NCBI RefSeq assembly: GCF_006345805.1
Contig: NC_043014.1
Coordinates: forward strand, 9,424,001-9,488,000
DNA from: Octopus sinensis
Lineage: Eukaryota
Length of the DNA: 64,000 nucleotides
Direction: 5' to 3'
Shown: piece after piece, positions 48,021 to 48,858 of the stretch
Position numbering within the stretch: position 1 is the stretch's first letter
How the letters are laid out: each line of letters begins with the position of its first letter
Program-made: the position numbers and the translations under genes
The notes under the pieces: generated by a model
Databases searched by the model: none
Told to the model about the DNA's origin: nothing
Seen by the model: only the letters and a program-made list of their open reading frames with translations

Positions 48021-48058
48021 TCTTTTACGTTTCGAGCCTACGCTCTTCGATAGAAAGG
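48021..48058 (-). ncRNA. Minimal HHR-like motif (U6 family) in PLE-type end (~47926-48270)
   Basis: CCTTT-CTATCGA-AGAGC GTAG GCTC-GAAAC-GTA-AAAGA. Confidence 0.6.
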
Positions 48059-48631
48059 AAGACAGAAATAAATGGAGAGACAAAATACAAATAAAAGGGT
48101 TGGTGGCTAGCGATCACTCATGGCGAATGCTGGACAGAAGTGGTCAGTCAAGAGAGCTAGGAAGAAGGGGAGACAATAAAGTAGTGGTGATCCGAAAACG
48201 AAGGTGAGCGTATGTGTGAAAGTGAGATTGGGAATATGCGTATGAATAGCGGCTGGTGACCTTGACGTGTGCGTGTGTGCATGTGTAGGTGTGTGGACGA
48301 TGCTGTGAGTGCTGGGAAGAGGTCAGTGATAGTGTGTGCGGGTGGTGTGATGTGGTGTGGTGTGGTATGGGGATGAGTGGTGTGGTGGTGAGGGAGGGGG
48401 TACATTGGCGGTGTGTGTGGGTGTCTTTGTTGTTTTCCCACCATTTCTCGACAAACGATGTTGGTGTGTTTACGCGTAAGTAAACTGGTAGAGAAATTTT
48501 ATGCTTACAAAAAATCAATCTAGATGTCGATTTCTGTGATTAGAAAGAAACCCCTTCAAGATGGTGAACTAGCATGGCTGCAGTTCAATGACTGACACAA
48601 GTAAAAGAATAAAAGCGTATATATATATATT

Positions 48632-48665
<34 letters not shown>

Positions 48666-48819
48666 CGTTTATTCTATATATATTTATATATATACGCTTT
48701 TATTCTATATATATATATATATATACACATATATAGGGAGAGTTTACGAAAAAAACAAAAGACAGGTGGTGTAGAAAACAGACAGATGTATTAGTATAAC
48801 GCTCAGGGATAGAAAAAAA

Positions 48820-48858
48820 TCTTTTACGTTTTTAGCCTACGCTCTTCTACAGAAAGGG
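48820..48858 (-). ncRNA. Minimal HHR-like motif (U6 family) in PLE-type end (~48733-48885)
   Basis: CCCTTT-CTGTAGA-AGAGC GTAG GCTA-AAAAC-GTA-AAAG. Confidence 0.55.

What the first reader, a model, noticed from the sequence alone, without database searches (positions are those of the whole stretch)
48021..48858. HHR-like family with a shared non-canonical core CUGUNGA (A6 to U)
Seen: three copies (7425+, 48021-, 48820-) read CCGTTGA, CTATCGA and CTGTAGA, all with T at position 6. They share AGAGC-GTA(G/T)-GCT, AAACGTA and a CTTT/AAAG helix I. Known: A6 is highly conserved in hammerheads. Inference: the shared change is ancestral to the family, so this is either a natural variant ribozyme or a catalytically dead fold kept as an RT-recognition signal. 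Family ends lacking the motif occur at 5585-5660 and 12535-12617.
Basis: partly seen in the sequence, partly recalled or inferred. Interest (0 to 1): 0.72.

Follow-up and report, generated by a model that had tools for sequence, protein, structure and literature searches.

The report
Penelope retrotransposon hammerhead with U6 core
The repeat is the small hammerhead-ribozyme motif carried in the end repeats of a very abundant Penelope-like jumping gene, and the whole family has U where hammerheads normally need A at core position 6, so it is likely a weakened or non-cutting version that the element nevertheless keeps.

Summary
The three window copies (7425+, 48020-, 48820-) are decayed members of one family. 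In the window's own genome the exact core with T at position 6 occurs 14,893 times, with A 172 times and with C or G 390 times.

The family is not a SINE. It is the 3' part of the terminal repeat (pLTR) of a canonical Penelope-like element (PLE). The ORF has a reverse transcriptase followed by a C-terminal GIY-YIG domain, with intact frames up to 1009 aa. The motif sits in both pLTRs, and 84 of 100 copies are followed by (TA)n.

The motif has every feature published for PLE "minimal" hammerheads except A6:
- a 4-5 bp helix I;
- an extra A after A9;
- a G10.1-C11.1 pair;
- a palindromic ACGU in place of helix III.

PLE relatives from metagenome contigs carry the same architecture with A6 in 18 of 18 ORF-strand hits, so U6 is derived. 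A covariance model built only from those relatives scores the U6 motif at 30.6 bits.

Across subfamilies only N7 and H17 vary. No excess of insertions starts at the predicted cut. Cleavage is untested.

I rate it a new variant of a known kind, of moderate interest.

The parts
48020..48059 (-). Hammerhead-like motif, copy 1. Helix I 5' strand is 48057-48054 (CUUU). The core box CUAUCGA is 48053-48047, with U6 at 48050 and a private G5>A at 48051. The extra A is 48046. Helix II with its loop, GAGC-GUAG-GCUC, is 48045-48034. GAA is 48033-48031 and ACGU is 48030-48027. H17 = A at 48026. The predicted cut lies between 48026 and 48025. Helix I 3' strand AAAG is 48025-48022.
   Evidence: Sequence read. 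Model R1, built from relatives only, scores it 20.2 bits, E 0.0025.
47902..48293 (-). pLTR fragment of the Penelope-like element that holds copy 1. It is 5'-truncated within the CA-rich part of the pLTR, and its 3' end abuts (TA)n at about 47900-47930.
   Evidence: BLAST to pLTRs of L082, L083 and L076, 73-77% identity. nhmmer hit 47905-48128.
48820..48858 (-). Hammerhead-like motif, copy 2. The core box CUGUAGA is 48852-48846, with U6 at 48849. Private changes C11.1>A (48833) and G12>A (48832) break helix II and the GAAA box.
   Evidence: Sequence read. 2 mismatches to the 25-mer. Not reported by model R1 at E<=10.
48706..48892 (-). 5'-truncated pLTR fragment that holds copy 2, followed on the element's 3' side by (TA)n at about 48620-48735.
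   Evidence: BLAST at 84-87% to L082 and L083 pLTRs. nhmmer hit 48709-48884.
7425..7463 (+). Hammerhead-like motif, copy 3. The core box CCGUUGA is 7431-7437, with U6 at 7434 and a private U4>C at 7432. Loop 2 reads GUAU. The helix I 3' strand is shortened to AAG.
   Evidence: Sequence read. Model R1 scores it 16.8 bits, E 0.027.
7426..7565 (+). 5'-truncated pLTR fragment of a diverged subfamily that holds copy 3.
   Evidence: BLAST at 73-75%. nhmmer hit 7426-7562.
12523..12642 (+). 5'-truncated pLTR end that starts downstream of the motif, with (TA)n on both sides.
   Evidence: BLAST at 87-88% to L076 and L083. nhmmer model columns 142-258. Sequence.
5585..5660 (+). Short pLTR-end fragment without the motif. 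It resembles 7480-7560.
   Evidence: By eye only. Not recovered by nhmmer or BLAST.

Best explanation
This is the minimal type-I hammerhead motif of the terminal repeats (pLTRs) of a canonical Penelope-like retrotransposon, with U instead of the conserved core A6 throughout the family. It is likely a strongly weakened or non-cutting hammerhead that the element keeps for a role other than efficient self-cleavage.

Shown:
- The repeat is the 3' part of a pLTR.
- Full copies read pLTR, then an ORF with reverse transcriptase followed by GIY-YIG, then pLTR, with the motif in both pLTRs.
- Copies are 5'-truncated at many points and sit next to (TA)n.
- U6 is the consensus of all subfamilies, whereas related PLEs elsewhere have A6 in the same architecture.

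Inferred:
- The RNA would fold with helix I CUUU/AAAG and helix II GAGC/GCUC. Two motifs would pair through the palindrome ACGU to form helix III, as proposed for PLE minimal hammerheads. The cut would fall after GUH (GUA or GUU).
- By analogy with published position-6 changes, U6 is predicted to lower cleavage strongly.
- New copies appear to be made from RNA in which neither motif was cut.
- The conserved core is then kept for a slow, protein-assisted or conditional cut, or for binding or folding of the element's RNA.
For: Element identity
- Long copies run from the motif upstream into an ORF. The ORF hits RVT_1 at 32.9 and 32.0 bits (cut-off 29.6). C-terminal to that it carries a GIY-YIG motif, LYIGQTGRRLADRFAEH.
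- At least 3,424 first-look ORF candidates were found, with open frames up to 1009 aa.
- L076, L079, L080 and L095 have the motif both upstream and downstream of the ORF, 4.3-4.5 kb apart.
- (TA)4 or longer follows 84 of 100 copies.

Fit to published PLE minimal hammerheads (PMC4209133, parts 1-2 read)
- The published features are a short helix I, an unpaired nucleotide between 9 and 10.1, G10.1-C11.1 and palindromic 15.2-16.2. All are present here.

Relatives
- In 80 metagenome loci that encode relatives of the ORF, a descriptor with position 6 left free found 18 hits on the ORF strand. All 18 have A6, and 15 have the extra A. The other strand gave 2 hits.
- The nearest relatives (49-57% aa identity) read CUGAUGA-a-GGGC..GCUC-GAA-ACGU-C.
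- Model R1, built from 15 of these relatives, scores the U6 motif at 30.6 bits (E about 2e-6). It scores a natural A6 copy at 38.2 bits.

U6 is fixed
-.

Conservation
- Columns polymorphic among subfamilies number 2 of 40 in the motif, exactly N7 and H17, against 64 of 214 outside (Fisher P 6e-4).
- In contigs of 4 organism codes, depth peaks 5-10 fold on the 40-nt motif, and contigs diverge on both sides of it.

Evidence for weak or no cutting
- Changes at position 6 give low activity. A6C is nearly inactive at low Mg2+ (PMC3088659 and PMC7151607, passages).
- Of 100 copies sampled by their tail, 1 starts exactly at the predicted cut and 4 within +20..+25. That is no more than in neighbouring stretches.
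- All copies run about 130 nt past the cut.
- The 5' pLTR of L076 is closer to the 5' pLTR of L079 (0.974) than to its own 3' pLTR (0.902). The template therefore appears to have carried both repeats.
- In the lizard PLE PAc, hammerhead-dead mutants insert normally in vitro (PMC11167929, passages).
Against: - No cleavage assay and no usable RNA data exist, so 'weak or dead' rests on analogy with A6C and older mutagenesis, not on U6 itself.
- The conservation pattern, in which only the two positions any hammerhead may vary do vary and H17 is never G in 82 copies, is what continued selection for catalysis would give. It fits the rival 'active variant' equally well or better.
- A6C hammerheads keep good activity with Mn2+ or high Mg2+, so position 6 is not absolutely required.
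- The family is young (ORFs 88-93% identical between lineages), so conservation is only moderately informative.
- The pLTR inheritance argument rests on one pair of elements.
- Absence of 5' ends at the cut is also reported for a canonical A6 PLE, so it does not discriminate.
- The exact-pattern counts favour young copies.
Confidence: 0.5

Rival explanations
1. The U6 motif is a working hammerhead variant. It would still cut after GUH as a dimer, perhaps only with the element's protein or with a different metal ion, and would process PLE transcripts as canonical PLE hammerheads are proposed to do.
For: - After the A6>U change, all other core nucleotides stayed invariant across subfamilies, and only N7 (T48 G13 A13 C8) and H17 (A45 T37, no G) vary.
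- The family kept amplifying to more than 15,000 motif copies with intact ORFs.
- The natural A6C variant is active with Mn2+.
- The PAc hammerhead cuts only when its protein is added.
Against: - Published changes at position 6 lower activity, and PLE minimal hammerheads are already poor cutters in vitro.
- There is no excess of genomic 5' ends at the cut.
- U6 is predicted to pair with A15.1 in an alternative hairpin (probability 0.96).
Confidence: 0.3
2. The motif is a neutral relic. The hammerhead was inactivated by A6>U, has no function, and looks conserved only because the family expanded recently.
For: - Lineages differ by only about 7-12% in the ORF.
- Craig et al. 2021 note that PLEs without canonical hammerheads proliferate well (PMC8557442, passages).
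Against: - The 40-nt motif is the least polymorphic block of the pLTR end (2 of 40 against 64 of 214 columns, P 6e-4).
- It stays intact in a diverged subfamily whose flanks no longer align at 85% (loose ends at both motif borders; L029, L082 and L097).
Confidence: 0.15
3. A chance look-alike of a hammerhead inside an unrelated SINE or other repeat.
For: - Rfam hammerhead models give no hit, even at E<=10.
- Helices I and II are short and never vary.
Against: - The motif lies in both pLTRs of a PLE.
- It has the same architecture as the A6 motifs of related PLEs.
- It scores 30.6 bits with a model built without it.
- Rfam also misses the natural A6 copy, so its silence reflects the missing helix III.
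Confidence: 0.02

Closest known systems
Minimal hammerheads (min-HHRs) of Penelope-like elements (Cervera & de la Pena 2014, PMC4209133, parts 1-2 read; Lunse et al. 2017, not held, known to me only from citations)
   Same: - Position in both pLTRs of an RT plus GIY-YIG element.
- Type-I order of strands.
- Helix I of 4-5 bp.
- An unpaired nucleotide between A9 and G10.1.
- G10.1-C11.1.
- No helix III of its own, with a palindromic 15.x-16.x (ACGU) instead, implying dimers.
- Thousands of mostly truncated solo copies.
   Different: - Core position 6 is U in the whole family. All 18 relatives' motifs found here have A.
- Helix II is only 4 bp, whereas 7-8 bp is described for schistosome families.
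- The motif lies about 550-860 nt downstream of the ORF, behind a long CA/CT-rich stretch.
Natural A6C hammerhead of bacteriophage Bcep176 (Perreault et al. 2011, PMC3088659; Naghdi et al. 2020, PMC7151607; passages read)
   Same: A natural substitution at the same conserved core position 6.
   Different: - That case is C, not U.
- It is a single phage locus with full helices.
- It has been shown to cut, weakly with Mg2+ and well with Mn2+. Nothing has been measured for U6.
U3-A8 covarying core of schistosome Cercyon PLE hammerheads (PMC4209133) and of other natural hammerheads (PMC3088659)
   Same: A family-wide departure from the consensus core in PLE hammerheads.
   Different: U3-A8 is a compensated base-pair swap known to keep activity. 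A6>U has no visible compensating change here: the other core letters equal those of the A6 relatives.
Animal non-LTR retrozymes and schistosome Sm-alpha SINE-like elements with type-I hammerheads (PMC7229834, passages; bioRxiv 10.64898/2026.07.22.740005, abstract)
   Same: Short non-coding repeats that carry a dimer-type hammerhead and are linked to PLE pLTRs.
   Different: Those are tandem arrays giving circular RNAs, with canonical cores. Here the short copies are dispersed 5'-truncated pLTR ends, and no tandem-unit or circle evidence was obtained.
Canonical type-I hammerheads in the same genome (RF00163 hits L109-L115)
   Same: Same genome and same ribozyme class.
   Different: They have A6 (CUGAAGAG), a helix III (C-AUGU-G) and a 4-6 bp GUAC helix I. 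They pass Rfam's cut-off (34.3-48.2 bits), and they belong to another repeat.

Membership tests
PLE minimal hammerhead (min-HHR) | Lies in the direct terminal repeats (pLTRs) of an element encoding RT plus GIY-YIG endonuclease | tested here: met
   The motif is on both sides of the ORF in L076, L079, L080 and L095. Pfam finds RVT_1 and a GIY-YIG motif.
PLE minimal hammerhead (min-HHR) | Core box CUGANGA | tested here: not met
   Six of seven letters are met. Position 6 is U in 14,893 of 15,455 otherwise exact copies (A 172, C/G 390) and in 78 of 82 unbiased copies.
PLE minimal hammerhead (min-HHR) | Core box GAAA directly 3' of helix II, with a G10.1-C11.1 closing pair | tested here: met
   GAGC-GUAG-GCUC-GAAA is the consensus, each column 0.89-0.98 conserved.
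PLE minimal hammerhead (min-HHR) | [quoted passage not shown] | tested here: met
   A at that place in the consensus. The same extra A is in 15 of 18 relatives' motifs.
PLE minimal hammerhead (min-HHR) | No own helix III, palindromic 15.x-16.x, and cleavage-site nucleotide H (not G) | tested here: met
   ACGU follows GAA. H17 is A in 45, U in 37 and G in 0 of 82 copies.
PLE minimal hammerhead (min-HHR) | Helices I and II supported by covariation | tested here: inconclusive
   Within the family the pairs never vary. Among 15 relatives, 8 of 9 pairs change on both sides, but 13 of those 15 were picked by a descriptor that demanded pairing, so the count is circular.
PLE minimal hammerhead (min-HHR) | Matches a sequence-and-structure model of the class built without it | tested here: met
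   Model R1, built from 15 relatives, scores it 30.6 bits, E about 1.7e-6 in 118 kb, over all 43 positions with 9 of 9 pairs. The only consensus mismatch is position 6. E-values are rough.
PLE minimal hammerhead (min-HHR) | Self-cleavage after H17 (as a dimer) | not testable with these tools
   Only assembled contigs of runs were available, with no read ends. The genomic 5' ends show no pile at the cut.
Rfam Hammerhead_1 (RF00163) and other Rfam hammerhead families | Score at or above the family's gathering threshold | tested here: not met
   No hammerhead hit in the window at gathering, nor at E<=10 around the copies. A consensus U6 element (L095) and a natural A6 copy (L107) also give none. 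The models require a helix III.
Canonical endonuclease-positive Penelope-like element | Single ORF with RT followed by a C-terminal GIY-YIG domain | tested here: met
   In the 1009-aa frame, RVT_1 covers residues 392-581 (32.0 bits, above the cut-off). GIY-YIG covers 812-845 (16.9 bits, below the cut-off of 22.6), but the YIGQTGR..R..EH motif is readable. Homologues' precomputed domains include PF00078 and PF01541.
Canonical endonuclease-positive Penelope-like element | 5'-truncated copies and a microsatellite target bias | tested here: met
   The 5' ends are spread over the whole pLTR. (TA)4 or longer follows 84 of 100 copies. (TA)n preference is described for PLEs with the CX2-5CxxC linker (PMC8557442, passages).
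SINE (tRNA/5S/7SL-derived, LINE-mobilised) | Short unit with a pol III-type head and a defined 5' end in all full copies | tested here: not met
   Long copies continue more than 1.3 kb upstream into the PLE ORF. I saw no tRNA-like head in the aligned copies; ARAGORN was not run.

The most novel reading that the evidence does not exclude
U6 is a selected, working catalytic-core variant. It would be the first natural A6>U hammerhead, fixed in tens of thousands of copies of an active retrotransposon in several related animals. It would cut only conditionally (with the element's protein, as a dimer, or with another metal ion), so that the cap-proximal motif does not destroy the element's own full-length RNA.
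Probability: 0.3. Interest if true: 0.7.

Novelty: new variant of a known kind. Interest (0 to 1): 0.5.

Why it matters
What the hammerheads of Penelope-like elements are for is an open question. They are universal in canonical PLEs, yet they cut poorly in vitro, and killing them does not stop insertion in vitro for one lizard element.

This family is a natural experiment on that question. It changed a core nucleotide that is regarded as invariant. It then multiplied to more than 15,000 motif copies with intact coding copies, and it still keeps every other core letter.

- If U6 is dead, efficient cutting is dispensable in vivo, and the motif must serve another role.
- If U6 is active, the rule for position 6 needs revising.

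Natural A6 copies exist in the same genome (for example L107), so matched test pairs are available.

Tried and rejected
- **SINE reading.** My first reading was a ~280-nt SINE with a (TA)n tail. I dropped it when long copies ran into an RT/GIY-YIG ORF. I also considered a Helitron/DINE-like element because of the (TA)n flanks. No call tested that idea; I dropped it once long copies ran into the RT/GIY-YIG ORF with pLTRs on both sides.
- **Rfam.** No hammerhead hit at any threshold. This is uninformative, because the natural A6 copy is missed too. The mir-297-like rows are microsatellite artefacts.
- **An A6 sub-lineage.** A6 copies looked enriched for N7 = G, and 5 of 12 fetched were of one subfamily. 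But that subfamily has 803 T6 against 21 A6, so this is background mutation.
- **Alternative registers of the core.** Reading GAAGA as G5-A9, or treating U as an insertion, breaks helix II or G8/A9 when checked by hand against the sequence. Rejected.
- **Genomic footprint of cleavage.** Only 1 of 100 5' ends lies exactly at the cut and 1-2 of 94 in an earlier sample. There is no excess.
- **RNA evidence.** No RNA holder is listed. All runs are kept as contigs and 'RNA?' is a guess. Laying 4 runs gave no read ends or joints of use.
- **Covariation inside the family.** Impossible, because the pairs are invariant.
- **Earlier scan notes.** Nothing near the window, by sequence or by words.
- **Literature on U6.**
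  - A search for 'hammerhead' plus 'A6U' found 3 papers, 2 listed. Judged from their titles and abstracts in the listing, those concern twister ribozymes and aptamers; I did not open them.
  - 'Penelope-like' plus 'octopus' plus 'hammerhead' found only Craig et al. 2021.
  - 'A6G/A6C' led to the A6C work.
  - Lunse et al. 2017 is not held, and the figures and supplements of Cervera & de la Pena 2014 were not seen. A U6 variant may be shown there, so I do not claim it is absent from print.

Full report
**1. The observation**

The three copies exist as described. The shared 25-mer matches at 7436-7460(+), 48024-48048(-) and 48823-48847(-) with at most 2 mismatches. It matched none of 100 shuffles of the window.

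Read on their own strands, the core boxes are CCGUUGA, CUAUCGA and CUGUAGA. U stands at hammerhead position 6 at 7434, 48050 and 48849. Each window copy also has private damage:
- U4>C in the 7425 copy;
- G5>A in the 48020 copy;
- C11.1>A and G12>A in the 48820 copy.

All three are therefore decayed individuals of a larger family.

**2. The family in the genome**

The window's genome (2.72 Gb) holds the exact 25-mer 9,483 times. A 20-mer from the repeat's tail occurs 15,625 times. The reversed control patterns gave 0 in both searches.

Keeping 24 other letters exact, position 6 is:

| Letter at position 6 | Copies |
|---|---|
| T | 14,893 |
| A | 172 |
| C or G | 390 |

In 100 copies sampled by their tail, and so without regard to the motif, 82 hold the motif. 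Of these, 78 have T, 2 have A and 2 have G.

The A6 copies are scattered over subfamilies. In the one subfamily where they looked enriched, T6 outnumbers A6 by 803 to 21. U6 is therefore the state of the family and of each subfamily.

**3. What the repeat is**

My first reading, a SINE with a (TA)n tail, was wrong. Long copies continue upstream through a CA/CT-rich stretch into coding DNA.

*The ORF*
- The frames hit RVT_1 above Pfam's cut-off.
- C-terminal to that they carry a GIY-YIG motif, which scores below the cut-off, but YIGQTGRRLADRFAEH is plain to read.
- The first look found 3,424 ORF candidates, with open frames up to 1009 aa.
- Homologues reach at most 57% identity. They come from many animals and have RT and GIY-YIG domains on record.

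*The element structure*
- Full copies L076, L079, L080 and L095 carry the motif both before and after the ORF, 4.3-4.5 kb apart. It lies inside direct repeats of about 0.7 kb.
- Copies are 5'-truncated at many points.
- 84 of 100 copies are followed by (TA)n.

This is the anatomy of a canonical endonuclease-positive Penelope-like element (PLE) with pseudo-LTRs and a microsatellite target bias, as described in PMC4209133 and PMC8557442. The two 'family ends lacking the motif' are simply deeper truncations.

**4. Is the motif a hammerhead?**

Cervera & de la Pena 2014 list what marks PLE minimal hammerheads beyond the two core boxes:
- a short helix I;
- a nucleotide between 9 and 10.1;
- a G10.1-C11.1 pair;
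- palindromic 15.2-16.2 instead of a helix III, implying action as dimers.

The family consensus is CUUU-CUGUNGA-A-GAGC-GUAG-GCUC-GAA-ACGU-H-AAAG. It has all of these features.

*Independent test with relatives.* I fetched 80 metagenome loci that encode relatives of the ORF and scanned them with a descriptor that leaves position 6 free.
- There were 18 hits on the ORF strand and 2 on the other strand.
- All 18 have A6.
- 15 have the extra A.
- Their palindromes are ACGU, AUAU, AGCU, ACCGGU and the like.
- The nearest relatives read CUGAUGA-a-GGGC-UAAC-GCUC-GAA-ACGU-C.

*Covariance model.* A model built from 15 of these motifs, none from this genome, gave the following scores:

| Copy | Bits | Note |
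|---|---|---|
| Consensus U6 motif | 30.6 | E about 2e-6, rough; all 9 pairs formed; only mismatch is position 6 |
| Natural A6 copy | 38.2 | |
| Window copy 48020(-) | 20.2 | |
| Window copy 7425(+) | 16.8 | |

*Rfam.* Rfam's hammerhead models find nothing. They also miss the natural A6 copy, because the class has no helix III.

*Conclusion.* The motif is homologous to PLE hammerheads, and U6 is a derived change of this lineage. Canonical A6 type-I hammerheads of another repeat exist in the same genome.

**5. Signs of constraint**

In 73 de-duplicated copies not chosen through the motif, columns polymorphic between subfamilies (minor letter at 15% or more) are 2 of 40 in the motif against 64 of 214 outside (Fisher P 6e-4). 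The two polymorphic columns are exactly N7 and H17, the positions any hammerhead may vary:
- N7: T 48, G 13, A 13, C 8;
- H17: A 45, U 37, never G.

Contigs of four organism codes show a 5-10-fold depth peak on the 40-nt motif. Many contigs diverge on both sides of it. The only common alternative letter inside it is at H17.

Two caveats apply. The lineages are only 7-12% apart in their ORFs. And the helices never vary, so the fold cannot be tested by covariation within the family. The covariation seen among relatives is circular, because the descriptor demanded pairing.

**6. Does it cut?**

This was not testable here. All runs found are kept as contigs.

Indirect evidence points to little or no cutting in the RNAs that become new copies:
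- Every copy runs about 130 nt past the predicted cut.
- Only 1 of 100 copies starts exactly at the cut, and 4 within six bases of it, no more than in neighbouring stretches.
- The 5' pLTR of L076 resembles the 5' pLTR of L079 (0.974) more than its own 3' pLTR (0.902). The template therefore seems to have held both repeats uncut. This rests on one pair of elements only.

Published work bears on the question:
- Changes at position 6 give low activity.
- The natural A6C variant is almost inactive at low Mg2+ but active with Mn2+.
- PLE minimal hammerheads are poor cutters anyway.
- Hammerhead-dead mutants of a lizard PLE insert normally in vitro, with no RNA-seq ends at the cut.

Folding predicts that U6 pairs with A15.1 and extends a competing hairpin. 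The pair probability is 0.96. The minimum free energy is -10.8 kcal/mol, against -9.3 for the natural A6 copy.

I therefore favour a strongly weakened or silent hammerhead that is kept for another role or for a slow, assisted cut (0.5). The alternatives are a fully working variant (0.3) and a neutral relic (0.15).

**7. Comparison and novelty**

In anatomy and descent this is a PLE minimal hammerhead. It fails one defining feature, the A of CUGANGA, so I file it as a variant of that kind and not as a plain member.

Family-wide core departures known to me from what I read are the compensated U3-A8 swap and the single-locus A6C. I found no U6 in my searches. However, I could not see Lunse et al. 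2017 or the figures and supplements of the 2014 paper, so I do not claim it is unpublished.

Its other hammerhead notes for this genome concern differently wired motifs in other elements.

**8. Verdict**

- It is a new variant of a known kind, with interest about 0.5.

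Noticed in passing
G000 loci L020, L038, L041, L052, L055, L057, L197, L206, L208, L211, L226, L233, L234, L244, L251-L255 and others: About 21 of 100 tail-sampled copies begin within one 12-nt stretch, (C)AGATCGCCATG or TCAGTCGCCATG in another subfamily. This lies 74-89 nt upstream of the GAAGAGC start of the shared 25-mer (the zero point of the offsets) and is often directly after (TA)n. The sequence resembles an initiator (TCAGT/TCAGA; the consensus is recalled, not tested). It may mark a transcription start inside the pLTR that yields ~240-nt RNAs copied as short SINE-like insertions.
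   Followed up: partly
100 copies from G000 contig C1: (TA)4 or longer follows the 3' end of 84 of 100 copies, and many 5' junctions are also (TA)n. No target-site duplication could be read. This fits the (TA)n target bias described for PLEs with a CX2-5CxxC linker; the ORF here has CRTCPYL...CISCSLC before GIY-YIG.
   Followed up: partly
L076, L079: The 5' pLTRs of two different elements are more alike (0.974) than the 5' and 3' pLTRs of one element (0.902). The 3' pLTRs are likewise alike (0.965). The two repeats seem to be inherited as distinct units, which does not fit copying of both from one template segment such as a circle.
   Followed up: partly
window 19048-19513, 26417-26870, 27696-28023, 32814-33142, 35972-36662, 57099-57377: An unrelated repeat of about 100-145 nt recurs at about 184-nt spacing in several short arrays on both strands of the window. 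It also occurs next to a PLE copy in L082 (positions 1746-1890 of its reverse complement).
   Followed up: no
window 5585-5700 and 7480-7600: The two fragments stay alike beyond the usual end of the repeat (...ttctataaatNtctgtatatttaaaaccttaaa..ggtaacataacacatagaacgg). This is either a local duplication about 1.9 kb apart or a subfamily with a different tail.
   Followed up: no
G000 loci L109-L115: Seven canonical type-I hammerheads pass Rfam's cut-off (34.3-48.2 bits). Five of them (L109, L112-L115) read (G/A)UGUA(C/U)-CUGAAGAG-ACCC..GGGU-CGAAAC-AUGU-GUCGUAC, belong to another repeat family, and include two sites 431 nt apart on C16.
   Followed up: no
L031, L045, L051, L058, L061; window 48130-48440: Between the ORF stop and the motif lie several hundred bases of CT-rich and then CA-rich low-complexity sequence. 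Its length varies between lineages and accounts for most of the pLTR divergence.
   Followed up: no
window 47460-47930, 49190-49370: Sub-threshold Rfam rows for mir-297, mir-1277 and the like fall on (TA)n/(TG)n microsatellites and are composition artefacts.
   Followed up: no
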